Source: a virus
Lineage: Duplodnaviria; Caudoviricetes
DNA: 55,906 bases
Direction: 5' to 3' (one strand)
Virus record (IMG/VR): IMGVR_UViG_3300031552_000006
Coordinates: 1 to 55,906 of that record
The translations under genes and the position numbers were made by a program. The notes beneath the pieces were generated by a model. That model ran no database searches. It saw only the letters and a list, made by a program, of their open reading frames with translations, and was not told the DNA's origin. Position 1 is the first letter of the stretch. Each line of letters opens with the position of its first letter. Below, piece after piece: positions 5,831 through 37,102 of the stretch.

Positions 5831-6115
5831 CTATTCTGGTTTAAAAGGTGAAACATTTATTCTTCTTGCATCGTCTAAGGCATCCAAAAGTTCTTTAAGT
5901 ACTGTTGCCGCCCCTTGGGCTCGATAAAGGGGTGCCCCGTCATATGTGACACAATAAATTTTTGCCTGGATTTCAGCCCGTTTTATCATTGCTTGCAACG
6001 AAATGAAATCATCATTTTCTTGTATCCTGGAAATTTCAAATATTTCCCGATCATTCTCAGGAAGTTTAACCGTTTTTATCATGACTTGACCCAGTCGCAA
6101 TAGATTCATTAGCAA
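5831..6115 (-). CDS. Small helical head-module protein
   Basis: LYRAQG...LxELL motif typical of small genes downstream of podovirus portals. Confidence 0.55.
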   Translation of the reverse strand: MLMNLLRLGQVMIKTVKLPENDREIFEISRIQENDDFISLQAMIKRAEIQAKIYCVTYDGAPLYRAQGAATVLKELLDALDDARRINVSPFKPE

Positions 6116-6141
6116 TACATCGGGTGCACATTAAAACGATT

Positions 6142-6339
6142 TCACCCGCGCCTAAATGTACCATTTTGAGAAACATAGAATTCGTCAGAGTCCGCATATC
6201 TCTCTATTGCGTCCTCAAGATGGCGAATCATCTGTTTCGCTGAATCTTTGGTATAAATTACACCAAGAACATCTTTGTCAGTTTTGTCAGTTTCAGGATT
6301 ACCAGGATTAAATATTAAAGATTTTTTTTCTTCTGTCAT
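6142..6339 (-). CDS. Hypothetical protein
   Basis: 65 aa, GAGG RBS. Confidence 0.55.
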   Translation of the reverse strand: MTEEKKSLIFNPGNPETDKTDKDVLGVIYTKDSAKQMIRHLEDAIERYADSDEFYVSQNGTFRRG

Positions 6340-6368
6340 AATAACCTCTTATTGAAAGGATTAATAAA

Positions 6369-6635
6369 ATTGAATCTAAACATGGCATTGTTTTACATCC
6401 TTCATGGAAAACTGAACTACCAAAATCTATCGATTTCCTCGTGAGAGATGCCCTCTATATTGATTGCATCTCCTACGAAATTGGCAATTATTACATCGAG
6501 ATTGAGGCAATAGAACAAGGACTACAAATGGGCACTGTTCGATTACTAATTCCACATCGATTGATTTCAGCAATTGTCGTTGATCAGAAAACACCAATTG
6601 GTTTTGATTCATCAATTGAGAATAAGGAATCTTAG
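6369..6635 (+). CDS. Hypothetical protein, antisense to late operon; ATT start or decayed start
   Basis: Frame of ORF 6441-6635 stays open back to ATT at 6369 after GAAAGGA; reads like a natural protein (..LLIPHRLISAIVVDQKTPIGF..). Confidence 0.4.
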   Translation: MESKHGIVLHPSWKTELPKSIDFLVRDALYIDCISYEIGNYYIEIEAIEQGLQMGTVRLLIPHRLISAIVVDQKTPIGFDSSIENKES

Positions 6636-6719
6636 AGCCATTTGCGATTGCTGTTCGAGTCCAAACATCTTTTTGAGTATTATCTATTTCCATAATAATT
6701 TATAAAGAGGTTAATAAAA

Positions 6720-6971
6720 ATGGAATCTATTGAACATTCACAACCATATCCATCATTGTCTCATCTCAATCCAGATATAGAGAAATTAAAAATTAACAAA
6801 TATACACAAACATCCAATGACAAATTAGACGACTTCGAGTTCAAAATAAAAGGCCCCCATGGTATTAACGAGGAACAATTTGGGGAGCAATTTGTATACA
6901 CACTTTATTGGAAGCATCCAAAAGATTCAAAAGCTTACTGTCTGTGGAAGTTATGCTGTAAAAACCATTAG
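6720..6971 (+). CDS. Hypothetical protein, possible cassette gene upstream of the attC at 7079
   Basis: AAAGAGG RBS; GTTAATA core at 6710; overlaps opposite-strand ORF. Confidence 0.4.
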   Translation: MESIEHSQPYPSLSHLNPDIEKLKINKYTQTSNDKLDDFEFKIKGPHGINEEQFGEQFVYTLYWKHPKDSKAYCLWKLCCKNH

Positions 6972-7071
6972 AATCTTTAGTAATAAGTAAGAAATCAACA
7001 TCATTTTCTATACATTTTGGCATTACAGCTTCTAATATTTCGCCATGAGTTTTTTTAAATTCTTTAGACAT
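6865..7071 (-). CDS. Hypothetical protein
   Basis: AGGAGG RBS lying in the end of the attC-like site. Confidence 0.55.
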   Translation of the reverse strand: MSKEFKKTHGEILEAVMPKCIENDVDFLLITKDSNGFYSITSTDSKLLNLLDASNKVCIQIAPQIVPR

Positions 7072-7078
7072 AAAAACC

Positions 7079-7142
7079 TCCTAACCAAAAGTTCAAGGCG
7101 ATCCGGCGAAAGACTGCCGGGCTCCTTAACTTCACGTTAATA
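7079..7142 (+). mobile_element. attC-like integron recombination site at the portal stop codon
   Basis: TCCTAAC..AAGTT(C)AAGG..CCGGC-loop-GCCGG..CCTTAACTT..GTTAATA; 64 bp; extra C in left arm. Confidence 0.75.
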
Positions 7143-20365: not shown

Positions 20366-20439
20366 TGCGTGGTGGAAAAACGGTAATTCGCCAGCCTCAT
20401 AAACTGGAGATCCGGGTCCGAATCCCGGCCACGCTACCT
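20366..20439 (+). tRNA. tRNA-Met(CAT)-like, atypical/possibly degenerate
   Basis: Cloverleaf; anticodon loop CTCATAA; 1:72 mismatch; T-loop TCCGAAT; ends ACCT. Confidence 0.7.
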
Positions 20440-20829: not shown

Positions 20830-20904
20830 AGCGGGGTGGCCAAGAGGTTAAGGCTCCGGTCTCATACGCCGGTATCGGCAGTTCGAATCTGCCCCCCGCA
20901 ACCA
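20830..20904 (+). tRNA. tRNA-Met(CAT), initiator-like
   Basis: AGCGGGG/CCCCGCA acceptor with 1:72 mismatch, CTCATAC loop, GTTCGAATC, ACCA end. Confidence 0.9.
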
Positions 20905-23744: not shown

Positions 23745-26225
23745 ATGAAGATACTATCATTAAAGGCAAAGGGATTAGTTGGGCTTAAAAAAGGCATAGG
23801 AATTGAAGAAATTAATCTTGACTTTTCAAACCTTTCAGGACTTATAGCTTTGGCCGGCGTGAACGGTAAAGGGAAAAGCACTGTGCTTGAAAGTTTACCA
23901 CCATACGCAATGATGGCAAGTAAAGATGGAGCTATTCAGAATCATTACTTCCTGCAGGATAGTTTCAGAGAACAGGAATATCTTTATAATGGGGATCTTA
24001 TCAGAACGCGCCTTGATATTAGGGGCGGAACAAATTACACACCTGATGGCTATATCTGGATCAATGATCAGCCAAAAACTACAGGCAAAATCTCAGAATA
24101 TAAAGGCCTCATCAATGAGATCTTCGGCACCTCTGATCTTTTTTTTAACTCTGTTATGCACGCCCAAAACAGTAAGAGATTATCAGATTTGCGCCCCGCG
24201 CAACTGAAAGACCTTTTCGCTGAATTTCTGCGCCTGGATCGATATATAAAGTACGAAGATATGGCGAAAAGAGCATCTTATATACTTGATGGCAGGGCGG
24301 AAGGTATAAAAAAATCATTACTCATACTTCAGGACCATGCGGACCAGATTCCAGAAAATATTAATGATGAAATAACAGCCATTTCTATAAGTATTGCAAA
24401 TAGAGAGGCAAGTCTTAAAATGCTTGCTGAAGGGCAGGAAAAATTTATTCAACAAATCGAATCATTTGGAAAAATAGCACAAAATAACAAAACACTTGAA
24501 GCGTCTAAGGTCGAAATTGTTAAATCAATTCAGCAGATCGATTTAGATATTCAAGCTGATAAAAAGCAGTCAGAATCTGAACTGGCAACTATCAGGGAAA
24601 AGGCCGCAAAGATTATTTCTCTTATAAAAGAGAATGAAAATATTATCGGAAGCAAGGATAAAATTGAATTAGCAGTATCAGAACTTGCAAAATTAGAAAA
24701 TGATCAAGTTAGGATTCAAGCCTTAATCAGTCAATGCAATGATAATATAGCCGCCAGGTCCGAAGAAATAAATAAACTACATACCACGCGCATCGAAGCA
24801 AATAAAAATGCCCAGGCCGATGAACTTAAAATATCCACCAGGATCGACGATCTTGAGAAGCAGCGTAGGGAGGCCAAGACAAACCTCGATAAAGCCCTTG
24901 ACCCTACGGCTACGGCTGCGCTCGAAGCTGAATTAAAAGCGTTACGGGAACAATCCGAGATACTTGGAAAGAGGAACCTAGATCCCTTTTGTCCGGACCA
25001 TACAGCGGCATGCATTTTTGTAAAAACAGCAATGGAGGCAAGCACAAGGATTCCGTTAGTAAAAACCCATATATCAGACAAAAAAAAGGAGCTGGAGCTC
25101 GCTCGGGAAAATGCGGTTAAGGAAATAAAGGAGCTTGACTCTAAGATATCTGATGAAAGCATCGCATTAAAAAGAATGGTTAATAAACATAAAGAAGCCG
25201 ATACTGGATATATTGATAGGCAAAAAGTTGAAAGGGACCTTTATGATAAGGATCAAAGAACAAAAACAGCTGAAATAAAAAATCTCGAAGACTTGGTCCT
25301 TAAAATAAATCTACTGCGACCTCAGGCAGCTATGATTGATAAAATAAAGACAGCCGAAAACACTCTCGGGTCTCTTAGAGAACAGAGAGAAGATATAACT
25401 CGGGAAGGCACAGAACTTAAAAAGAAATGGGATCAGCGAATCAATAATTTATTGGCTCGAAAATCATTGAATCAGGATTCAATCGAGACAATAAACAAGG
25501 AAATCGTTGAAGGCATTGATCAGAAACTTCAATACGAAAAAGATAATCTCAAAATAACGGAAAAACTGATCATTCAGGAGAAGGAAGAGATTTCTAAGGA
25601 GAAAAGCCAAATCGAAAATTTGAAAGTCAAGTCTCAGGAAAAAGAGAAGATACAGGAGGATATTGGTACCCAGAATAAAAATAAAATTGCCATCATGAAT
25701 GCGATATCCGACTTTAAATATATTCAGGCCATGTGCTCAAAAGACGGACTCAGGGCGCTTGAAATAGATGCGGTGAGACCAACTATCACTCATTATGCGA
25801 ACGACCTGATAGTCAATTCTTTTGGCCCTTCTTCCACTATAAAAATCGTTACTCAAGATGACAACGGTAAAGAGATTTTCGACATAAGAATTATTGACGA
25901 AGACGGTGAGGAGGTTTCCCTGGGAAATAGATCCGGAGGTCAGCAGGTCTGGCCCCTGAAGGCACTGCAGCTGGCAATGGCCCGCATCAATAAGGAGAAA
26001 TCCGGGAAAAATTATTTAACCTTACTTTCGGATGAGGAAGATGGAGCCCTATCTAGCGAAAATGCTAAAAATTTTGTATCTCTTTATCGCGGCATGTTGG
26101 CCCCGGATAAACAAACAGGCATAAAAACTTTTGAAAGCTGTTTCTATATATCTCATAAGTCTGAGTGTGTGGATATGGCTGATCATCGAATCATTTTCGA
26201 TGGAAATGGGATAAGCATTGAATAA
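23745..26225 (+). CDS. sbcC: SbcC/Rad50-like SMC ATPase
   Basis: GVNGKGKST, long coiled coil with central Cys pair, SGGQ signature, SDEEDGAL, ISH. Confidence 0.9.
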   Translation: MKILSLKAKGLVGLKKGIGIEEINLDFSNLSGLIALAGVNGKGKSTVLESLPPYAMMASKDGAIQNHYFLQDSFREQEYLYNGDLIRTRLDIRGGTNYTPDGYIWINDQPKTTGKISEYKGLINEIFGTSDLFFNSVMHAQNSKRLSDLRPAQLKDLFAEFLRLDRYIKYEDMAKRASYILDGRAEGIKKSLLILQDHADQIPENINDEITAISISIANREASLKMLAEGQEKFIQQIESFGKIAQNNKTLEASKVEIVKSIQQIDLDIQADKKQSESELATIREKAAKIISLIKENENIIGSKDKIELAVSELAKLENDQVRIQALISQCNDNIAARSEEINKLHTTRIEANKNAQADELKISTRIDDLEKQRREAKTNLDKALDPTATAALEAELKALREQSEILGKRNLDPFCPDHTAACIFVKTAMEASTRIPLVKTHISDKKKELELARENAVKEIKELDSKISDESIALKRMVNKHKEADTGYIDRQKVERDLYDKDQRTKTAEIKNLEDLVLKINLLRPQAAMIDKIKTAENTLGSLREQREDITREGTELKKKWDQRINNLLARKSLNQDSIETINKEIVEGIDQKLQYEKDNLKITEKLIIQEKEEISKEKSQIENLKVKSQEKEKIQEDIGTQNKNKIAIMNAISDFKYIQAMCSKDGLRALEIDAVRPTITHYANDLIVNSFGPSSTIKIVTQDDNGKEIFDIRIIDEDGEEVSLGNRSGGQQVWPLKALQLAMARINKEKSGKNYLTLLSDEEDGALSSENAKNFVSLYRGMLAPDKQTGIKTFESCFYISHKSECVDMADHRIIFDGNGISIE

Positions 26226-26235
26226 TTTTTAACCT

Positions 26236-26254
26236 GTATAATAACTGGTTATGT
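26236..26254 (+). mobile_element. Putative array entry site (attI/attG-like simple site)
   Basis: GTATAAT-N5-GTTATGT; GTTATGT is the exact complement of the first attC R'' (ACATAAC). Confidence 0.5.
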
Positions 26255-26540
26255 GTGGAGGAATATGGATAAGCATCAAAAAGATCTATATGAAAAAGAA
26301 ATTTTGGAAAAGTTAGTTCCTGCATTAAATAAACATTTAACGCTAAAGGAGGGTTGGAAGTTTTTGGACACAGTGAATCCAATACTTTCAAAATCGGGAT
26401 CGCCTTGGGTTTATATGATTTTTGCGGACGGTATAGCTGTTGTACTTGCTGAGAGCTTAAAAAGAACGGCAGACGCTATACGTAAAGCAGAAGGAGTCCA
26501 CGGAAGTTCTGTTGGTTGGGATAAAGACATTTTCACATAA
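26253..26540 (+). CDS. Cassette gene 1, hypothetical (likely start MDKHQ at 26265)
   Basis: GGAGG RBS; stop TAA lies inside attC R''. Confidence 0.8.
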   Translation: MWRNMDKHQKDLYEKEILEKLVPALNKHLTLKEGWKFLDTVNPILSKSGSPWVYMIFADGIAVVLAESLKRTADAIRKAEGVHGSSVGWDKDIFT

Positions 26541-26599
26541 CCTTAGTTTCAACAGTGACCGCGCAAAAGACCAATCGGCACGTTAAACCAATGTTATTT
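26535..26599 (+). mobile_element. attC site
   Basis: ACATAAC..GTTT(C)AAC(A)GTG(A)CCG-loop-CGGCACGTTAAAC..GTTATTT; 65 bp, three extrahelical bases. Confidence 0.88.
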
Positions 26600-26614
26600 T
26601 CATGGAGCAATTAA

Positions 26615-26797
26615 ATGGAACATTGTAAAAAATGTGGATACAAAACAGTTTTAGCAACATCACTGGTTACATATTTTACTCCAGACGACGAACCCTACGA
26701 ATCCGGAGATTGTGAATTACCCGAAACAATGGAAGAAGATGACGAAATTTACGCTCATGTAATGGTTGGAATACATTGGTGTGAAAGTGGAGTGTAG
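26615..26797 (+). CDS. Cassette gene 2a, small acidic CxxC protein
   Basis: GGAG RBS just after attC. Confidence 0.6.
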   Translation: MEHCKKCGYKTVLATSLVTYFTPDDEPYESGDCELPETMEEDDEIYAHVMVGIHWCESGV

Positions 26798-27125
26798 CAT
26801 GGATGGTAATCAATTCAGCAATTTGTACTTGGGTAATTTTCAACCTTCTGAGGAAAGTGCATTTCTTTGGGAGTTGGCAAAAGAATACCATGAACGAACA
26901 GAGTCATATGATAGAACTGTTTGTACTGGTCCTATTATAAATGATGCTATAGTTCCAATGAATAATTTTGAGAGAAGCAAAACATTAATGAACGCACATA
27001 AAATAAGAAAAGAAATATATCAAAGGGCCTTAGATAGAGGCATTGAAAAAAACAAAGTAAAAAAGGCTATAGTCAACTATTTATCCACTAACCCACGCAT
27101 CAACGCAGACCTGCAAACACCGTAG
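26766..27125 (+). CDS. Cassette gene 2b, hypothetical; reads into attC
   Basis: C-terminus TNPRINADLQTP is the translated attC left arm. Confidence 0.7.
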   Translation: MEYIGVKVECSMDGNQFSNLYLGNFQPSEESAFLWELAKEYHERTESYDRTVCTGPIINDAIVPMNNFERSKTLMNAHKIRKEIYQRALDRGIEKNKVKKAIVNYLSTNPRINADLQTP

Positions 27126-27148
27126 GCTGGTTATGCGGAATGTTATGA
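27086..27148 (+). mobile_element. attC site
   Basis: CACTAAC..CGCAT(C)AAC(G)CAG(A)CCTGC-loop-GTAGGCTGGTTATGCG..GTTATGA; 63 bp. Confidence 0.88.
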
Positions 27149-27157
27149 GAGTTTACT

Positions 27158-27412
27158 ATGAAATTAAGTGAGATAATAGCAGAAAGATTGTTTACTAATG
27201 GAGCTGGGCATAAAGCTCAACGCCTTGTGCTTGAAATGGAAAATGGTTCGGATGGCGGAGGATGGTGTAAAAAGACAGTTATAGATCAAATAGACAGAAT
27301 CCTCACAGAACTCACAAATCAACAGGAACAGGCAGGGAAATGTCCAGATTGTGGAGTTGAGAAAGGTGAACACCATTTATACCACTGCCCAGAGATCGGA
27401 TTCAATCTTTAA
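27158..27412 (+). CDS. Cassette gene 3, hypothetical with C-terminal Cys/His motif
   Basis: ATG 10 nt after attC; CPDC...HHLYHCP tail. Confidence 0.75.
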   Translation: MKLSEIIAERLFTNGAGHKAQRLVLEMENGSDGGGWCKKTVIDQIDRILTELTNQQEQAGKCPDCGVEKGEHHLYHCPEIGFNL

Positions 27413-27441
27413 CCGCCCGGCTGGTTATTTGGGCGTTATGC
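27305..27441 (+). mobile_element. Long attC-like site with degenerate left arm inside a CDS
   Basis: ACAGAAC..AAAT(C)AAC left; CTGGTTATTT..GTTATGC right; right arm repeated at 33055. Confidence 0.65.
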
Positions 27442-27454
27442 CTTTGGAGGGAAT

Positions 27455-27712
27455 ATGGATAGAATTCGATTAATTGAAGAAATAACAAAAATATCAAATT
27501 CATTGGACAAATCGATCTCTGATGCATCAGTCAGGGCTATTGAGGAATATCCTGATTTAGGAGTTATTTTAAATAAGGATGAAGATCCTATCGATGAGAC
27601 CTATATACAAAGAGCTAAAATAACCATGGAAAAAGCTTATGAGCGCAAAAGAACTTGCAAAGAAATAATCGATCTTATTAATAAGAACTGGCATGAGATA
27701 GTCAGTGGTTAA
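27455..27712 (+). CDS. Cassette gene 4, hypothetical helical protein
   Basis: GGAGG RBS after GTTATGC; stops 6 nt before next attC. Confidence 0.8.
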   Translation: MDRIRLIEEITKISNSLDKSISDASVRAIEEYPDLGVILNKDEDPIDETYIQRAKITMEKAYERKRTCKEIIDLINKNWHEIVSG

Positions 27713-27718
27713 TTTCAA

Positions 27719-27776
27719 GCATAATACTCATTCAACCACCCGGACAGCATAGCTGACGGTTAACTTAATGTTAGTT
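27719..27776 (+). mobile_element. attC-like site, slightly degenerate
   Basis: GCATAAT..TT(C)AAC..CAGC-ATA-GCTG..GTTAA..GTTAGTT; R'' matches the cassette start GTTATGC at 6 of 7 positions. Confidence 0.7.
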
Positions 27777-27790
27777 GGAAAGGAGAGAAT

Positions 27791-27988
27791 ATGCCAAAAA
27801 AATCACAAGATACACAGGTAGTTGATGAAATAACAGCGATTGTTAAAAATTTTTATGCACAGAGTCATACAGATGAAGCCCCTATAGTTTCACGTGAAAA
27901 TATAGTTTTAATGGTCGGCGCGGTTTGTAAGGATTGCGAAGAAGCTATCCGGCTGATTAGAACTATCAGGCAGGTTACAGGGGGATAA
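27791..27988 (+). CDS. Cassette-position gene 5, hypothetical
   Basis: AAAGGAG RBS straight after attC. Confidence 0.7.
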   Translation: MPKKSQDTQVVDEITAIVKNFYAQSHTDEAPIVSRENIVLMVGAVCKDCEEAIRLIRTIRQVTGG

Positions 27989-28004
27989 AAAGACTGGAAA
28001 CTAT

Positions 28005-28128
28005 TTGACATCCAAACCCATATAATATATTCTCCAAAATGCTATGACAACTCAAATCGAAAATAAATTTGACCTCGCTTCCGGGATAATCTTAATGGGT
28101 TGTCATAGCACCGGGGGCGGGGTTTTTT
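28005..28128 (+). promoter_or_regulatory. Promoter plus structured leader with interleaved inverted repeats and U-tract
   Basis: TTGACA at 28005; A 28041-28051 / A' 28099-28109; B 28071-28084 / B' 28111-28124. Confidence 0.7.
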
Positions 28129-28142
28129 ATTGGAGAGATAGG

Positions 28143-28631
28143 ATGGGTATACCAGAGGGATATTGTCAATGCGGATGTAATCAAAAAACGTCTATTTCAA
28201 CGGTAAATAATAAAAATAGAGGATTGGTTAAAGGTAAACCTTTAAAATACGTAAGAGACCATGTGAATAAAGTCAAAAATTATAAAGGGGAAAACCATCC
28301 TCAATTTAAAGGAAGAATATATAGAAGGGGATATATTTATCTTTACATGCCATCACACCCAAAAGCAACAAAACAGGGATACATAGCGGAACATCGACTT
28401 GTAATGGAATCTAAAATAGGAAGATATTTAAAATCATGCGAGGTGGTACACCACATCAATGAAATTAAAGATGATAATAAGCCCGAAAATTTATTGCTTT
28501 TTAAAAGCGCTGGAAAACATTCAATAAGGGCCAAGCATGTTTTAAAAAATAATAAAGACGGTAGATTCATCTCTCCCAATAATTGTCAGTGGCTGACATT
28601 AGAAGAAAACGCCGCAAAAGGGAATAGTTGA
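28143..28631 (+). CDS. HNH homing-type endonuclease
   Basis: CQCGC N-terminus, GENHP, GYIAEHRLVME..IGRYL...EVVHHINEIKDDNKPENL. Confidence 0.88.
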   Translation: MGIPEGYCQCGCNQKTSISTVNNKNRGLVKGKPLKYVRDHVNKVKNYKGENHPQFKGRIYRRGYIYLYMPSHPKATKQGYIAEHRLVMESKIGRYLKSCEVVHHINEIKDDNKPENLLLFKSAGKHSIRAKHVLKNNKDGRFISPNNCQWLTLEENAAKGNS

Positions 28632-30271
28632 TGTCCTTAATTTTACGCAAACACCAATTTGAATTTGGTCAAATAGTAGAAGAAATCCGAAGCGGGAAGC
28701 CTATAAATAGAATTGTAGCTTATGTTGTTCCTGGAGGTGGAAAATCCTTATTTTCCCTATTATGCTGGCCATTAATAAAATATGGCCACTCAAATTCAAT
28801 ATGTTGGGTAGTCCCACGATTAACCCTAGCATATCAGGCTGAACTCAATGCGATTGATCCATTTTTTAAGAAAGAGCTCAATCATGGCATGATTATCAGG
28901 GCAGCAACAAACGAATATAACCCAAGACGGAACTGTACAGGCTACACAACAACCTACCAGGCAATAGGACAGGATTCTAATTTTTATAACGTTCGGGAAT
29001 TTGAACAAAGGAAATATATCCTCATCCTTGATGAAAATCATCATATAGCCGCAGATAATGGTCAATGGCATAAATCGATATCCCCTTTAGTAGAAAGATG
29101 TAATTTATTAATACTTCTTTCAGGTACACTCAATAGAGGCGATGAAGATAAAATCGCTTTCATGGATTACGAAGACAGAGGTAATAATATTTGCCTTGAC
29201 CTTAGTGAAAATGATTATACCCGTGTTATACGCTATACCCGGAGTGATGCATTAAAAGAAAAAGCAATACTCCCCATCAAATTTACATTATTTGACGGCG
29301 ATGTTGAATGGGAAAGGAAAGGAAAAGAATTTAAAACAAAACTGTCAAAGGCTTATGAACATTCCGGAGATGCAATACAAACGGCTTTAAATACTGCATT
29401 TGGAAATCATATCATGAAAAATGGATTTGATCATTGGATCGAATATAAAAAATATGATCCAGGATCAAAAATAGCGATTGTCGCAGCAAATATTAAACAT
29501 GCCAAATCATTACTATCAATCCTTAAGGATTGGGGTTTTAATCCTTTAATAGCAACAAGTGATGATTCTTTGGAAGCTCTAAAAGCAATAAAAGAATATC
29601 GATTTGGATCATGTGATACTATGGTCTTTTGTGGTATGTGCTCAGAAGGTCTCGATGTTCCTGAAATGACACATATTATAGTTCTCACTCATTTTCGCAC
29701 CGAAGCATATATTGAACAGCTTGTATCCAGGGCTGTACGGGTTAATAAAAAGGCCGGACCTTATGAAAGTCAGGTGGCTTATATCTTCGCTCCTGATGAT
29801 CCTCCTTTCAGAAGAGTAGTAGAAAAAATAAAAAAGGAACAATCAAATATCATTGTAAATGATTCTGATAAATCCGAATTACCAGAAAAAAAGAGAAATG
29901 GCAGAGGAGAAAGAGGGCCAGGCATCACGTTTATAAACGGCTCCATATCCGGCGCCCGTGAAATATCACTTGGTGAGATCCCGTCAGGCTATACTCCGCC
30001 CCCTACAATCAGCGAACAGGAACACTCATTAAGAAAACAGATAGATGACCATGTGAAAAGCTTCTGCCGCGTTTATATGGCAGAGCATAAAAAAGTGAAT
30101 GGAGAGATAAAGACTGTTTTTAAAAAGTCTCGGGACCTAATGGAACTTTCAGAACTCGAGCGCTGCTATGAATATGTCAAAGATTTCTATTCATTAGTTG
30201 AGAGGCCAAAAAAGAAAGTCAGGAAAAGAGGCAGATTAATACCTACTAAGGCAGTACCCTGGATAAATTAA
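28628..30271 (+). CDS. Superfamily 2 (ResIII/DEAD-like) helicase
   Basis: LRKHQ Q-motif, PGGGKS, DENHH, SGT, EGLDVP, QLVSRAVR. Confidence 0.9.
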   Translation: MMSLILRKHQFEFGQIVEEIRSGKPINRIVAYVVPGGGKSLFSLLCWPLIKYGHSNSICWVVPRLTLAYQAELNAIDPFFKKELNHGMIIRAATNEYNPRRNCTGYTTTYQAIGQDSNFYNVREFEQRKYILILDENHHIAADNGQWHKSISPLVERCNLLILLSGTLNRGDEDKIAFMDYEDRGNNICLDLSENDYTRVIRYTRSDALKEKAILPIKFTLFDGDVEWERKGKEFKTKLSKAYEHSGDAIQTALNTAFGNHIMKNGFDHWIEYKKYDPGSKIAIVAANIKHAKSLLSILKDWGFNPLIATSDDSLEALKAIKEYRFGSCDTMVFCGMCSEGLDVPEMTHIIVLTHFRTEAYIEQLVSRAVRVNKKAGPYESQVAYIFAPDDPPFRRVVEKIKKEQSNIIVNDSDKSELPEKKRNGRGERGPGITFINGSISGAREISLGEIPSGYTPPPTISEQEHSLRKQIDDHVKSFCRVYMAEHKKVNGEIKTVFKKSRDLMELSELERCYEYVKDFYSLVERPKKKVRKRGRLIPTKAVPWIN

Positions 30272-30293
30272 TGTTATATTTGGAAGGAAAGGG

Positions 30294-30485
30294 ATGAAAA
30301 TGGATGACATGGGATTTTATTTTTTACAAAGAGATATCCAGGATATTATGGATAAACTTAAAAAATTGCAAAGCGCATATTTAAAAGAAACAGGGAGAGA
30401 GTTTATTGATGGTCAAAGGATAAATGGTTTAATGCAGTGTCCGGCATGTGGCCATTTTAAACCACTACCGCGGCACGGCGCTTAA
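30294..30485 (+). CDS. Small protein with C-terminal CxxC
   Basis: 63 aa with RBS. Confidence 0.6.
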   Translation: MKMDDMGFYFLQRDIQDIMDKLKKLQSAYLKETGREFIDGQRINGLMQCPACGHFKPLPRHGA

Positions 30486-30635: not shown

Positions 30636-30886
30636 ATGTCGGAAACAAAACAGAAAATTATCACGTTGTTAAATGAAACGAAAAGAGATGGAATAGGTTA
30701 TCTGATTAACTATCTCGTAGAAAACGGTGTTGTAGTTGCGGCAAGCTGATAAATGTTGGAGAAATTTGCAATAAGTATTCAAGATACCGATACCCATATG
30801 ATGAGATTGAATCTGGTAAAATCAGATCCTTTGTAGTCTCTAGGATAAGCAAAAAGATCAACAAGGCTCAGTGGTGGGATAGATGA
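30636..30886 (+). pseudogene. Fused gene remnants (HD-hydrolase-like N-terminus, then RRKRCCSC fragment in another frame)
   Basis: 37-aa ORF 30636-30749 with strong RBS; startless frame RRKRCCSCGKLINVGE... begins inside it. Confidence 0.45.
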
Positions 30887-31486: not shown

Positions 31487-31949
31487 TTAAATGATTCATC
31501 CAGATCCTAACCCTGTTCATATAAAGAAAAAAATAAATGGATAACTGTTACGCACAAAAAAGTGAAAAATCAAAAGTAGAACATATATATAATTTTGATA
31601 AGGGCAAGACGTATTGTGGATTAAGAGATATTTATGCCAAATATAAAATATTATCAGGACGCTCTATTTGCAAAAAATGTTTGTCAATATTTCACAAGGA
31701 AAAGGAATGATTTATGGACACAATCTACACCCAAATGTACCCGAGCCCTAAAGTAAAACAATGGAGATCAGAAAAATCTATATATATCAGGTAAATCTCA
31801 TTATCATAGGGCATGTCAAAAAGAATATGACAGAATCAGATGGTCGAAGAAAAACAAATCGAGGATGGAACAATTATCTTTGATGATATGCAAGCAATGA
31901 TTTGTTCGCTGAATCTTTTAAATGAATATTTAATGGAGAGAGGGATAAA

Positions 31950-32806: not shown

Positions 32807-33058
32807 GTGAAAATGCGATTAACAATAAAAAATAGACTAATATTATGTTGGGAAATACTGACTGTTAAAAGCGGCCATGTTCATAATGCCGATGAAAAAC
32901 AGTTATCAACATTTATTCGTGGTTATGAAGCCGGACGCAAAGATCAGCAATACGAAAATACCCTACAAACAAACTTAGACCGGGCTCCTGAATGCAATTG
33001 TTTTAAACCAGATACTTTAGTGCATGAAAGTTGTCCAGTTCATACTTTAAAACGTTAA
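32807..33058 (+). CDS. Hypothetical protein with C-terminal Cys/His motif
   Basis: CNC...HESCPVH tail; stop abuts attC right arm. Confidence 0.7.
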   Translation: MKMRLTIKNRLILCWEILTVKSGHVHNADEKQLSTFIRGYEAGRKDQQYENTLQTNLDRAPECNCFKPDTLVHESCPVHTLKR

Positions 33059-33087
33059 CCGCCTGGCTGGTTATTTGGGCGTTATGC
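32955..33087 (+). mobile_element. Long attC-like site, left arm decayed within CDS
   Basis: Right arm 33055-33096 matches 27409-27450 at 40 of 42; left remnant TAG(A)CCGGGC. Confidence 0.6.
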
Positions 33088-33102
33088 CTTCGGAGGAAAT
33101 AA

Positions 33103-33432
33103 ATGGATATTGCATTTTTTCATGATTGTGCAGTTGATGGATGTTACAAAAAATCAATCAAAGGAAAACAGATGTGCAGACAGCATCAAGCCGAATATGA
33201 TAGCGGCAAAAAATTAAAGGCCTTTTATGGCAAGACGGTACAAAAGAATTTAAATTGTAAATATTTAGAACTATTAGATTTTGAATATTTGGATTGTGAA
33301 TATTTAGTTGGTGTTTCTATTTGTGATCTTAATGATGCTCAGAAATCTGATTGTTGTCCGTTAAGGGGAACTGAATATGAGCATAACCAAACCTTTCACA
33401 GCGACCGCGCCACAGATCGGCGCGACGCGTGA
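33103..33432 (+). CDS. Cassette gene, Cys-rich hypothetical; reads through attC
   Basis: GGAGG RBS; tail HNQTFHSDRATDRRDA is translated attC. Confidence 0.75.
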   Translation: MDIAFFHDCAVDGCYKKSIKGKQMCRQHQAEYDSGKKLKAFYGKTVQKNLNCKYLELLDFEYLDCEYLVGVSICDLNDAQKSDCCPLRGTEYEHNQTFHSDRATDRRDA

Positions 33433-33447
33433 AGGCTATCGTTATGA
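33381..33447 (+). mobile_element. attC site
   Basis: GCATAAC..CCTT(T)CAC(A)GCG(A)CCGCGCC-loop-GGCGCGACGCGTGAAGG..GTTATGA; R'' is the exact complement of GTTATGC at 33081. Confidence 0.9.
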
Positions 33448-35929: not shown

Positions 35930-37102
35930 TTAAGGTCTACTCCTGTATATTTTCCCATTCGGATATGTCCCGGCCAGAGCAATCCCATCACCTAGATAAG
36001 ATAACGAACGAATATATGTTTCCGAACCCTGCTGACCCAGATCGGTCCAGGTTGCACCATAATCAACGCTCCTGTATATTTTACCATTAAGAGCTGTACC
36101 CGCCAGGGCAATACCATTGCCTAGATAAGATAACGAAAAAATATATGTTTCCGAACCCTGCTGACCCAGATCGGTCCAGGTTGCACCATAATCAACGCTC
36201 CTATATATTTTACCATTCGGATATGTCCCGGCCAGAGCAATACCATTGCCTAGATAAGATAACGAAAAAATATATGTTTCCGAACCCTGCTGACCCAGAT
36301 CGGTCCAGGTTGCACCATAATCAACGCTCCTGTATATTTTCCCATTCGGATATGTCCCGGCCAGAGCAATCCCATTGCCGAGATAAGACAACGAAAAAAT
36401 TTGTGTTTCCGAACCCTGCTGACCCAGATCGGTCCAGGTTGCACCATAATCAACGCTCCTGTATATTTTACCATTAGGATATGTACCCGCCAGGGCAATC
36501 CCATTGCCGAGATAAGACAACGAACGAATATATGTTTCCGAACCCTGCTGACCCAGATCGGTCCAGGTTGCACCATAATCAACGCTCCTATATATTTTCC
36601 CATTCGGATATGTCCCGGCCAGAGCAATCCCATTGCCGAGATAAGACAACGAAAGAATTTGTGTTTCCGAACCCTGCTGACCCAGATCGGTCCAGGTTGC
36701 ACCATAATCAACGCTCCTGTATATTTTACCATTAAGAGCTGTACCCGCCAGGGCAATACCATTGCCGAGATAAGACAACGAAAGAATTTGTGTTTCCGAA
36801 CCCTGCTGACCCAGATCGGTCCAGGTTGCACCAATACTTTCCTGTATGCCTGGCAACATTCCGTCATGCTGAAGAAGTAAGTCATCTTTATCAGTCAATT
36901 CAAAATTTACTCTGGCCCCAAATTTAGTAATAGCCCCAGTTCCACCATTGGCAATCGGAACTGTGTCACCTGCAACATATCGACCAAGGGCAGTAATATC
37001 ACCAGTACCATTTTCTATCGCTTTTACGGGTATTTTATCGCCAGCATGGACGGTGGTTACTAAAGATAGTAAAATCAATGTAAAATATAATATTTTTCTC
37101 AT
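35930..37102 (-). CDS. Seven-bladed BNR/Asp-box beta-propeller protein with signal-peptide-like N-terminus and fibre motif
   Basis: SxDxGxTW repeats x7; VPIANGGTGA motif; MRKILYFTLILLSLVTTVHA. Confidence 0.85.
   Translation of the reverse strand: MRKILYFTLILLSLVTTVHAGDKIPVKAIENGTGDITALGRYVAGDTVPIANGGTGAITKFGARVNFELTDKDDLLLQHDGMLPGIQESIGATWTDLGQQGSETQILSLSYLGNGIALAGTALNGKIYRSVDYGATWTDLGQQGSETQILSLSYLGNGIALAGTYPNGKIYRSVDYGATWTDLGQQGSETYIRSLSYLGNGIALAGTYPNGKIYRSVDYGATWTDLGQQGSETQIFSLSYLGNGIALAGTYPNGKIYRSVDYGATWTDLGQQGSETYIFSLSYLGNGIALAGTYPNGKIYRSVDYGATWTDLGQQGSETYIFSLSYLGNGIALAGTALNGKIYRSVDYGATWTDLGQQGSETYIRSLSYLGDGIALAGTYPNGKIYRSRP
35938..36832 (-). repeat. Seven tandem 129-bp coding repeats
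   Basis: Near-identical 43-codon units. Confidence 0.95.

What the first reader, a model, noticed from the sequence alone, without database searches (positions are those of the whole stretch)
26236..27990. Integron-type gene-cassette array in a phage genome that encodes no integron integrase
Seen: directly after sbcC, small promoterless ORFs alternate with palindromes at 26535-26599, 27086-27148, 27305-27441 and 27719-27776. The first two have full attC anatomy: TAAC (R''), L'' with an extra C, further unpaired bases in the left arm, L', and GTT (R'). The other two are degenerate. An ATG follows each R' within about 20 nt, usually with a clear RBS. Boundaries cross-match as expected for excisable circles: start GTTATGT (26248) complements R'' ACATAAC, and start GTTATGC (27435) matches R'' GCATAAT at 6 of 7. 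Established: attC bottom-strand hairpins are IntI substrates, and integrase-less clusters (CALINs) occur in bacteria. Inference: the phage gains or shuffles early accessory genes using a host IntI in trans. The cargo resembles small phage genes rather than resistance genes, which suggests a phage-specific cassette pool.
Basis: partly seen in the sequence, partly recalled or inferred. Interest (0 to 1): 0.92.

Follow-up and report, generated by a model that had tools for sequence, protein, structure and literature searches.

The report
Integron gene cassettes inside a phage
A complete uncultured tailed phage carries several small early genes as integron-type cassettes ending in attC recombination hairpins of the kind found in salt-marsh sulfate-reducer-type bacteria, which is a good new example of a phenomenon first published in 2023.

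Summary
They belong to a repeat family with attC anatomy: an AAC/GTT R box, an L box with one extra C in the left arm, and a variable loop.

A model built only from non-phage attC sites ranks the phage sites as its top hits. A model built only from the phage sites finds the aadA1 attC of plasmid R100. It also finds cassette arrays beside true intI genes in three genomes of the bacterial family named below.

The R'' of each site matches the R' of the site upstream better than its own adjacent R' (8 better, 4 ties, 0 worse in phages). This is the signature of crossover at G|TT. One 1050-bp indel between near-identical phages ends exactly at G|TT.

The phage has no tyrosine recombinase. A contig of a MAG labelled Desulfobacteraceae carries a textbook cassette array that includes near-identical sites. 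IntI is present in 34 of 61 genomes of that family.

Other junctions do not fall at G|TT, so homologous recombination between the repeats also contributes.

Arrays of this kind in phages (CALINs) were published by Qi et al. in 2023, and this scan has noted similar arrays on other DNA before.

The parts
26228..26254 (+). Start of array A. A short R-box-only palindrome lies after the sbcC stop codon and ends in GTTATGT (26248-26254). This 7-mer is the 5' boundary of cassette 1.
   Evidence: Sequence read. The 7-mer is the exact reverse complement of the R'' of site 1. There is only a weak R1 match on the minus strand at 26239-26254 (12.4 bits, E 6.6).
26265..26540 (+). Cassette 1 ORF (91 aa). 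Its TAA stop codon lies inside the R'' of site 1.
   Evidence: No Pfam or PHROG family matched.
26535..26599 (+). attC site 1 (short-loop form).
   Evidence: R1 scores 64.5 bits, but this site is one of R1's seeds. R2, built from non-phage attCs, scores 22.8 bits, E 0.025, end to end. The site is 82% identical to a site on MAG contig C369.
26615..27125 (+). Cassette 2, holding two ORFs (26615-26797, 60 aa; 26799-27125, 108 aa). The second ORF reads through the left arm of site 2.
   Evidence: The second ORF matches phrog_27964, function unknown, E 2.7e-18.
27086..27148 (+). attC site 2 (short-loop form).
   Evidence: R1 scores 60 bits (seed). R2 scores 22.3 bits, E 0.031.
27158..27412 (+). Cassette 3 ORF (84 aa), with a Cys/His-rich tail encoded in the loop of site 3.
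   Evidence: No family matched.
27305..27441 (+). attC site 3, a long-loop form with a decayed left arm. The right arm is shared with the site at 33056-33088.
   Evidence: The right arm is 98% identical over 41 nt to bacterial array contig C725. Neither R1 nor R2 detects this site.
27455..27712 (+). Cassette 4 ORF (85 aa). It is also present in relative G002.
   Evidence: 99.5% identity over 27409-27988.
27719..27776 (+). attC site 4. It is weaker than the others, with an R'' that ends AAT.
   Evidence: R1 scores 45.5 bits (seed). R2 scores 14.5 bits, E 1.9, but this still ranks above every non-site hit.
27791..27988 (+). Last small ORF (65 aa). No attC follows it. Homology with G002 ends at its stop codon.
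32807..33087 (+). Array B. An ORF (83 aa, 32807-33058) is followed by long-loop attC site 5 (about 32955-33087). A homologous ORF with the same site lies in the unrelated phage G001.
   Evidence: Against G001 the ORF is 56% identical in protein and the right arm 91% identical in DNA.
33103..33447 (+). A cassette holding a 109-aa Cys-rich ORF (33103-33432) and attC site 6 (33381-33447). Its R'' GCATAAC is the exact complement of the upstream R' GTTATGC at 33081.
   Evidence: R2 scores 24.2 bits, E 0.011, its top hit.
6087..7142 (+). A 1050-bp insert (GC 35%), absent from relative G002, that ends in attC site 7 (7079-7142). The right junction falls exactly between the G and the TT of its R'.
   Evidence: R2 scores 22.2 bits, E 0.032.

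Best explanation
The palindromes are genuine integron attC sites, and the small ORFs between them are integron gene cassettes. The phage therefore carries clusters of attC sites without an integrase (CALINs) at three or more places in its genome.

I infer that the cassettes were put together by an integron integrase working on the folded bottom strand and crossing over between the G and the TT of R'. The most likely enzyme is the IntI of a host from an integron-rich bacterial family, labelled Desulfobacteraceae in the one linked MAG. The phage and the bacterial arrays draw on one cassette pool.

Once in the phage, the cassettes are read from upstream early promoters, each using the ribosome-binding site that follows R'. 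Later reshuffling among related phages happens partly at G|TT and partly by ordinary homologous recombination between the repeated attC-plus-RBS modules.

Shown here: site anatomy, family membership, the G|TT chain signature, presence/absence polymorphism, and the absence of a phage integrase.

Inferred: which integrase acts, that it acts on phage DNA during infection, and the identity of the host.
For: (1) Anatomy. All copies share a YATAAC R'', a spacer of about 6 nt, an L'' with one extra C, an L', a spacer of 5-7 nt, and an R' of GTTA(T/G). The unpaired bases are all on the same arm.

(2) Phage model against real integrons. R1 was built from 6 phage sites. In 100 kb of search space on plasmid R100 its top hit is exactly the aadA1 attC, on the cassette strand and end to end (18.6 bits, E 0.12). 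On 16-kb flanks either side of bona fide intI genes in 3 bacterial genomes, all 17 hits at E <= 1 lie in one flank per genome (7, 7 and 3) and none in the three opposite flanks. Sixteen of the 17 share the strand of their flank, and the best scores 37.3 bits, E 4.6e-6.

(3) Reciprocal test. R2 was built from 8 non-phage attCs: 6 from MAG arrays, plus aadA1 and aac(6')-IIa. Searched over the window plus G002 (197 kb, both strands), its top 7 hits are the 7 phage sites, each full length and on the right strand. Four of them have E 0.011-0.032. The best hit that is not a site scores 13.2 bits.

(4) Chain signature. In 19 cassettes, the reverse complement of R'' matches the upstream R' better than the adjacent R' in 14, ties in 5 and is never worse. 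In phages alone the count is 8, 4 and 0 (66 against 55 matches; random-pool p 0.003). In the bacterial array C725, 6 of 7 are perfect 7/7 matches.

(5) Polymorphism. Window 6087-7136 is absent from the 97%-identical phage G002, and its right junction is exactly G|TT of site 7. Window 26204-27408, which holds three cassettes, is replaced in G002. G002 carries its own 950-bp insert of two ORFs plus a site. Three of 14 early-region breakpoints lie inside or within 5 nt of a site (random p 0.022).

(6) Spread. The unrelated phage G001 (3 of 220 window ORFs have a blastp hit; GC 49%) holds an array of at least 6 such sites. That array has GC 38.5%, against 48.5% and 50.6% in its flanks.

(7) Bacterial link. 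Contig C725 of a MAG titled Desulfobacteraceae is an array of 8 same-strand sites with GNAT and Shedu (SduA_C) cassettes, and it includes two near-identical 'phage-type' sites. IntI scores above NCBIfam's cut-off in 34 of 61 genomes of that MAG's family.

(8) No integrase in the phages. PF00589 and TIGR02249 find nothing in the complete phage, and PF00589 finds nothing in G001 or G002.

(9) The constraint is on the nucleic acid. The R'' TAAC is read as a TAA stop in some copies and as an Asn codon in another frame in others.
Against: Folding energies are not beyond shuffles.

The R2 E-values are modest (0.01-0.03), and 6 of its 8 seeds come from a single MAG.

R1 gave no hit at E <= 10 downstream of blaIMP-1 or dfrA14, so it recovered 2 of 4 distinct class-1 attC types. 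R2 missed the G002 site at 31901 and the decayed long forms.

Many junctions are not at G|TT:
- The left end of array A lies 45 nt upstream, inside sbcC (26203).
- The left end of the 1050-bp insert is not G|TT, and 7 nt of the empty site are replaced.
- The G002 insert ends 12 nt past a degenerate ATT.
- The same ORF (33462 onward) follows different sites in the window and in G002, and the roughly 10 nt after GTTA are not shared.
- Downstream of site 3, G002 mixes markers of the window's two copies.
- Low-depth contigs from other runs share a site plus RBS plus start codon and only then diverge, at 26638 and 27793, which is 23-45 nt past G|TT.

No IntI scores above the cut-off in the linked MAG itself. 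There is no spacer or prophage match between the phage and that MAG, so the host assignment rests on site similarity and on a metagenomic bin.

Two of the 12 phage rows in the chain test are orthologous (window_A 4 and G002_A 1).
Confidence: 0.72

Rival explanations
1. The sites are attC-derived relics. A piece of a bacterial cassette array was captured once, by illegitimate or homologous recombination. IntI does not act on the phage. The repeated attC-plus-RBS modules now serve only as patches of homology for the phage's own recombination, which includes its SbcCD-like nuclease, much as promoter/stem-loop modules do in T4-type phages.
For: Similarity between different contexts often runs on through the RBS and start codon. 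The window and G001 match to 27466, and there are loose ends at 26638 and 27793. The G002 junction after site 3 mixes markers of two window copies. Several breakpoints are unrelated to any site. No integrase is found in any of the three phages.
Against: Homologous exchange of whole modules would keep each R'' with its own adjacent R'. Instead, R'' matches the upstream R' (8 better, 0 worse in phages). Sites sit at three or more separate loci and in both orientations relative to the genome. One insert ends exactly at G|TT. The array in G001 is compositionally foreign, which indicates separate acquisition.
Confidence: 0.18
2. The sites are substrates of a different hairpin-recognising recombinase, either a Xer-like enzyme or an unknown host or phage enzyme, rather than of IntI.
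For: No IntI is seen in the phages or in the linked MAG. That MAG holds 27 tyrosine-recombinase-like matches, including a 288-aa Xer-like gene next to an IS91-type transposase. Earlier unchecked notes of this scan describe Xer-associated hairpin cassette systems in other phages.
Against: The phage-derived model finds arrays directly beside genes that score above the curated IntI cut-off, and it finds the aadA1 attC of a class 1 integron. The cores are AAC/GTT, with the extra base in L'' as in aadA1.
Confidence: 0.06
3. The sites are RNA-level elements of the early polycistronic transcript, such as processing sites, stabilisers, terminators or translational operators, and only look like attC sites.
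For: They are intergenic, on the sense strand, and followed at a fixed distance by an RBS. One terminator-like hairpin lies just upstream of site 4, at 27687-27706.
Against: No Rfam family matched. No T-run follows the sites, and the terminator scan does not hit them. The same family lies in integron arrays beside intI in bacteria. Long forms would need pairing across 70-110 nt of translated sequence. The R''/upstream-R' chain has no RNA explanation. Site 7 lies antisense to the late operon.
Confidence: 0.03

Closest known systems
CALINs (clusters of attC sites lacking an integron integrase) in phage genomes: Qi, Rajabal, Ghaly, Tetu and Gillings 2023, Front Microbiol, PMC9892861 (abstract and section 3.4 read)
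   Same: Both are arrays of attC-bounded cassettes in phages without an intI, including virulent phages, with cassettes mostly co-oriented. In that paper, five of six phage attC sites were recombined by IntI1.
   Different: This phage is uncultured and nothing has been assayed. New here are four things: near-identical relatives that differ by whole cassettes, one junction exactly at G|TT, the same site family in an unrelated phage and in a bacterial array, and long-loop sites whose loops encode Cys-rich protein tails.
Sedentary chromosomal integron cassette arrays, here those beside intI in genomes of the linked MAG's family, and MAG contig C725
   Same: The attC family is the same (R1 hits; near-identical sites). 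The R''/upstream-R' chain is the same. ORFs are promoterless and co-oriented.
   Different: The phage has no intI, no recognisable attI and no Pc. Its arrays are short, with 1-5 cassettes, and are scattered among essential phage genes. Each cassette has a tight RBS immediately after R'.
attC of the aadA1 cassette (the 59-base element) in class 1 integron In2 of plasmid R100
   Same: The layout is the same and aligns end to end with the phage model: R'' ending TAAC, an L'' of TTCAAG type with the extra C, an L' of CTTAAC type, and an R' GTTAG.
   Different: Sequence similarity is low (18.6 bits). The aadA1 site has a GC-rich central stem, a resistance-gene cargo and a cognate IntI1 next to it.
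Off-target cassette insertion by IntI into genomic sites outside att sites (preprint 10.1101/2022.09.11.507474; only the abstract in the search listing was seen)
   Same: It would explain lone cassettes placed between phage genes, such as the insert ending at site 7, whose right junction is G|TT.
   Different: The left junction and the 7 replaced bases do not fit a simple single insertion. The target preference described in that work is recalled, not read.
Promoter/stem-loop modules (PeSLs) that mediate modular shuffling in T4-type phages
   Same: Both are repeated intergenic stem-loop modules at mosaic boundaries between small early genes.
   Different: The sites here carry no promoter. They have AAC/GTT cores and one-sided extra bases, and they occur beside intI in bacteria.

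Membership tests
Integron attC site | Outer inverted cores: R'' ending AAC and R' beginning GTT (consensus RYYYAAC / GTTRRRY; the consensus is recalled). | tested here: met
   AAC and GTT cores are present in sites 1, 2, 3, 6 and 7. Site 4 has AAT. The full 7-mer consensus is matched only in part: the R'' is typically YATAAC and the R' GTTATGN.
Integron attC site | An inner pair L''/L' with one extra base in L'', which becomes the extrahelical G on the bottom strand, and with all unpaired bases on the R''/L'' arm. | tested here: met
   The extra C lies between TT/AT and AAC in sites 1, 2, 4 and 7. It aligns with the same C of aadA1. A one-sided-bulge scan finds the sites on one strand only.
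Integron attC site | An imperfect hairpin with a variable terminal loop and an overall length of roughly 55-140 nt (range recalled). | tested here: met
   Short forms are 52-67 nt and long forms 120-137 nt. Thermodynamic stability is not beyond shuffles.
Integron attC site | Detected by a covariance model of attC sites. | tested here: met
   IntegronFinder's own model was not available. My stand-in R2, built from 8 non-phage attCs, ranks the 7 phage sites as its top 7 hits, four of them at E 0.011-0.032. In the other direction, R1 finds aadA1 and intI-adjacent arrays.
Integron attC site | Cassette signature: the last six bases of each R' belong to the next cassette, so an R'' pairs best with the R' upstream of its own cassette. 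| tested here: met
   14 better, 5 ties and 0 worse of 19. In phages alone, 8, 4 and 0 (p 0.003).
Integron attC site | Recombined by an integron integrase as a folded bottom strand. | not testable with these tools
   This needs the attC x attI assay. The indirect evidence is one indel junction at G|TT, while other junctions are not at G|TT.
Complete integron | An intI gene with an adjacent attI and cassette promoter. | tested here: not met
   The complete genome has no match to TIGR02249 or PF00589. It is therefore not an integron.
CALIN | Two or more attC sites close together (within about 4 kb; threshold recalled) with no intI nearby. | tested here: met
   There are four sites within 1.25 kb (26535-27776) and two within 0.5 kb (32955-33447). 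There is no intI.
Intrinsic terminators / RNA processing hairpins | A GC-rich stem followed by a T-run, or a match to a known RNA family. | tested here: not met
   The terminator scan does not hit the sites. Rfam gives nothing meaningful.
PeSL-type promoter/stem-loop cassettes | An early promoter joined to the stem-loop. | tested here: not met
   There is no promoter-like match at the sites. The family definition is recalled.

The most novel reading that the evidence does not exclude
During infection, the host's integron integrase works on replicating, single-stranded-rich phage DNA. Virulent phages and the chromosomal integrons of their hosts would then trade cassettes in both directions. Small phage genes, possibly counter-defence genes with zinc-ribbon-like tails encoded inside the attC loops, would sit in the same bacterial arrays as defence genes such as Shedu. 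Unrelated phages in one habitat would share a cassette pool through the host's integron.
Probability: 0.3. Interest if true: 0.75.

Novelty: new member of a known kind. Interest (0 to 1): 0.5.

Why it matters
Integrons are usually treated as a bacterial device, but phage-borne attC clusters were shown in 2023 to be recombination-proficient.

This case adds field evidence that such cassettes turn over in phage genomes:
- Near-identical phages differ by whole cassettes.
- One junction lies at the integrase's cutting point.
- An unrelated phage carries a compositionally foreign array of the same site family.
- A bacterial array holds both phage-type cassettes and a Shedu defence cassette.

It also gives a host clue for an uncultured phage, because the attC type points to an integron-rich family. 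And it gives a concrete set of sites and cassettes with which to test whether host IntI acts on phage DNA.

Tried and rejected
Rfam, at a permissive threshold over 25500-29000, gave only two meaningless matches (E 4.6 and 6.6).

GenBank phages, searched with blastn on 25000-29000, gave 3 records covering 4% of the query, all in the HNH gene only. No relative was found there.

Folding both strands of each site did not separate them from shuffles, and neither strand was clearly favoured.

The 8-nt right-end motif is not enriched in the window (6 matches against 4.8 expected).

The first MAFFT alignment, made with loose ends, was unusable (A1). I re-aligned with exact ends (A2).

R1 found nothing at E <= 1 in G001, although reading the sequence shows at least 6 sites there, mostly long-loop or divergent. 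The model is therefore conservative.

The genome-contig scan gave 4 stretches. Three (L022, L023 and L025) have no left arm and look like chance matches inside genes.

The linked MAG has no IntI above the cut-off. Its best candidate is a 288-aa Xer-like gene beside an IS91-type transposase. MAG contig C9 carries sites but looks phage-like itself (Phg_2220_C, DUF6475), so I left it out of the non-phage model.

Searching the phage DNA against the MAG gave no spacer-like or prophage match, only the two attC matches plus three matches at E 0.009.

Sequencing runs: no RNA holder is listed. Five salt-marsh metagenome runs hold parts of the stretch, and all are kept as contigs. Laying four of them showed one 53-kb contig with the G002-type arrangement and no excision joints. 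Contigs cannot show rare circles, so this says nothing about excision.

Literature: a search for integron + Desulfobacteraceae + attC returned 0 papers. Searches for phage-borne attC returned Qi et al. 2023 as the only paper on the topic by title.

I did not use the structure, complex, homolog or atlas tools. The cargo proteins remain without an assigned function.
Full report
WHAT THE WINDOW IS

The window is a complete virus record of 55,906 bp with direct terminal repeats. It encodes a large terminase, a portal/head-tail adaptor, an internal virion protein and a replication initiator. It also encodes SbcD- and SbcC-like proteins, an HNH endonuclease and a helicase. No tyrosine recombinase and no integron integrase is detectable in it. 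GenBank phages hold no close relative.

THE OBSERVATION

Six small + strand ORFs lie directly after the SbcC-like gene, separated by imperfect palindromes.

The palindromes are not just inverted repeats. They are copies of one family. Each copy has an outer AAC...GTT pair and, about 6 nt further in, a second pair in which the left arm carries one extra C. Further unpaired bases all lie on the left arm. The loop is variable, and R' reads GTTA(T/G). A ribosome-binding site and an ATG follow R' by 16-22 nt.

- 33381-33447.
- A near-copy of the right arm of site 3 at 33056-33088.

The short right arms at 27410 and 33056 are the 3' halves of long-loop sites. Their left arms lie about 100 nt upstream, inside the preceding ORF. 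Intact examples of this form are seen in relatives.

The R'' TAAC serves as a stop codon in some copies and as an Asn codon in another frame in others. The conservation is therefore at the level of the nucleic acid, not the protein.

Hairpin energies alone do not exceed shuffled controls.

ARE THESE attC SITES?

I could not run IntegronFinder, so I tested family membership in both directions with my own covariance models.

R1 was built from six phage sites.
- In the window and its relative it finds only the known copies.
- On 50 kb of plasmid R100, its best hit on either strand is exactly the aadA1 attC, end to end on the cassette strand. R'', L'' with the extra C, L' and R' are all in register (18.6 bits, E 0.12).
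- On four more class 1 integron loci it again finds aadA1, and weakly finds the aac(6')-IIa site. It gives nothing downstream of blaIMP-1 or dfrA14.
- On 16-kb flanks on both sides of bona fide intI genes in three bacterial genomes, all 17 hits at E <= 1 lie in one flank per genome (7, 7 and 3) and none in the opposite flanks. Sixteen of the 17 are on one strand within their flank. In one of the three genomes the array lay on the side of intI that I had not predicted.

R2 was built only from non-phage sites: six from MAG cassette arrays, plus aadA1 and aac(6')-IIa, with a RNAalifold consensus structure.
- Over the window plus relative G002, it ranks the seven phage sites as its top seven hits. 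Each is full length and on the right strand, and four have E 0.011-0.032.
- The best hit that is not a site scores 13.2 bits.
- It missed one G002 site and the decayed long forms.

THE CASSETTE SIGNATURE

In integron arrays the crossover lies between the G and the TT of R'. The last six bases of each R' therefore belong to the next cassette, and an R'' pairs best with the R' upstream of its own cassette. I tested the pattern on every site I could delimit.

Of 19 cassettes, the upstream R' fits better in 14, ties in 5 and is never worse. For the 12 phage cassettes the count is 8, 4 and 0 (66 against 55 matching bases; random-pool p 0.003). For the bacterial array C725, six of seven are perfect 7/7 matches.

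Two of the phage rows are orthologous, and the R'' of the decayed site 3 is uncertain.

An earlier run of this test had three off-by-one slips. One search uses coordinates only.

RELATIVES

Phage G002 is 97-99% identical to the window in the parts they share, and it differs from the window in blocks.
- Window 26204-27408, which holds three cassettes, is replaced by one different ORF that carries its own long attC. Identity resumes inside site 3.
- A 1050-bp AT-rich insert (6087-7136) is absent from G002. Its right junction is exactly G|TT of site 7. Its left junction is not G|TT, and 7 nt of the empty site are replaced.
- G002 in turn has a 950-bp insert of two ORFs plus a site, oriented with the late genes. 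The R' position of that site reads ATT, and the insert's right end lies 12 nt further on.

Three of 14 early-region breakpoints lie inside or within 5 nt of a site (random p 0.022). Others lie elsewhere: a free-standing HNH gene with its own promoter, swapped for 2 kb that includes an HTH gene and a likely methyltransferase; a 209-bp indel; and a truncated gene.

Several junctions run 10-45 nt past G|TT, through the RBS and start codon. This fits homologous recombination between the repeated modules better than it fits IntI.

SPREAD BEYOND THIS PHAGE

The 20-nt right arm occurs in an otherwise unrelated 64-kb phage, G001. Only 3 of 220 window ORFs have a blastp hit there, and its GC is 49%.

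G001 has an array of at least six sites among small ORFs. That array has GC 38.5%, against 48.5% and 50.6% in its flanks, so it was acquired from elsewhere. G001 has no PF00589 match either.

THE BACTERIAL LINK

A scan of one genome per prokaryote species gave one real match. It is a 3.5-kb contig (C725) of a MAG titled Desulfobacteraceae.

C725 is a textbook cassette array with eight same-strand sites and a perfect R''/R' chain. It includes GNAT and Shedu (SduA_C) cassettes. Its first cassettes are of the phage type, with sites 98% (41 nt) and about 94% identical to sites in the window and in G001.

Other contigs of the same MAG also carry sites, including one that is 82% identical to site 1.

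The MAG itself shows no IntI above the cut-off. It has no spacer or prophage match to the phage. However, 34 of 61 genomes of its family carry IntI above NCBIfam's cut-off. The host inference is therefore suggestive only.

MECHANISM

The best-supported reading is that these are integron cassettes assembled by IntI-type crossover at G|TT, drawn from a pool shared with bacterial chromosomal arrays.

In the phage they are expressed from upstream early promoters. No promoter-like site lies at the attC sites. Each cassette uses the RBS that follows R'.

Reshuffling among phages is partly site-specific and partly homologous.

Which integrase acts, and whether it acts on phage DNA during infection, is inferred and not shown.

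WHAT IS KNOWN

Qi et al. [quoted passage not shown] They showed that IntI1 recombines five of six attC sites from virulent phages.

My searches found no other paper on this topic by title, and none linking integrons, attC and Desulfobacteraceae.

This scan's own notes record phage-borne attC arrays on other DNA many times. Those notes are unchecked by me and are not used as evidence.

VERDICT

This is a new member of a known kind. Its value lies in the natural cassette turnover, the G|TT junction, the foreign array in an unrelated phage, and the link to an integron-rich bacterial family.

Noticed in passing
window 28005-28631; L003 13377-15397: A free-standing HNH endonuclease gene (28044-28631, PF13392) has its own promoter-like site (TTGACA, 17 nt, 10 of 12 matches, at 28005) and a strong leader hairpin (28040-28110, z -3.75). 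In relative G002 it is replaced by about 2 kb. By my reading of the sequence, that stretch holds small ORFs, an HTH gene and a likely DNA methyltransferase. Neither boundary is at an attC site.
   Followed up: partly
window 27305-27441 and 32955-33087; L003 12700-12830 and 18889-19013; L017 2360-3080 (minus strand); L024 261-677: Long-loop attC sites have a 70-110-nt loop that encodes the C-terminal tail of the upstream ORF. The tail is Cys/His-rich and looks like a zinc ribbon. The left arm is read as a recurring peptide of the type ..N-x-x-I-N-x-D-R... The tails differ in sequence between copies. I cannot explain why zinc-ribbon-like tails should sit inside attC loops.
   Followed up: partly
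window 30636-30749; L003 17225-17781: A gene that is full length in G002 is cut down to 37 aa in the window. By eye its product looks like an HD-type phosphohydrolase. Identity between the two phages ends at 30718-30721, inside the gene.
   Followed up: no
window 30276-30484: The 63-aa ORF 30294-30485 is absent from G002, where 15 unrelated bases stand in its place (also seen in a contig of run X1). A GTTAT motif follows the helicase stop codon, but there is no hairpin.
   Followed up: no
window 35940-36833: There are about seven tandem units of 129 bp, 88-94% alike, inside the minus-strand ORF 35930-37102. They show up as staggered blastn matches against G002.
   Followed up: no
window 20366-20438 and 20830-20904: Two tRNA-Met (CAT) genes lie at the head of the early region. 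G002 lacks about 950 bp here and has 549 other bases instead (a joint in a run X1 contig).
   Followed up: no
G003 contig C9 (L039/L040), 28 kb, GC 42.5%: This contig of the same MAG looks phage-like (Phg_2220_C, DUF6475, HTH_3). It carries six attC-like sites on one strand and two genes 27-53% identical in protein to G002 genes. It may be a third phage with cassettes.
   Followed up: partly
window 6087-7136: The insert that ends in site 7 displaces the ribosome-binding site (CTCCTTT on the + strand in G002) of the late gene that follows the portal gene. In the window that gene's start has no obvious Shine-Dalgarno sequence.
   Followed up: no
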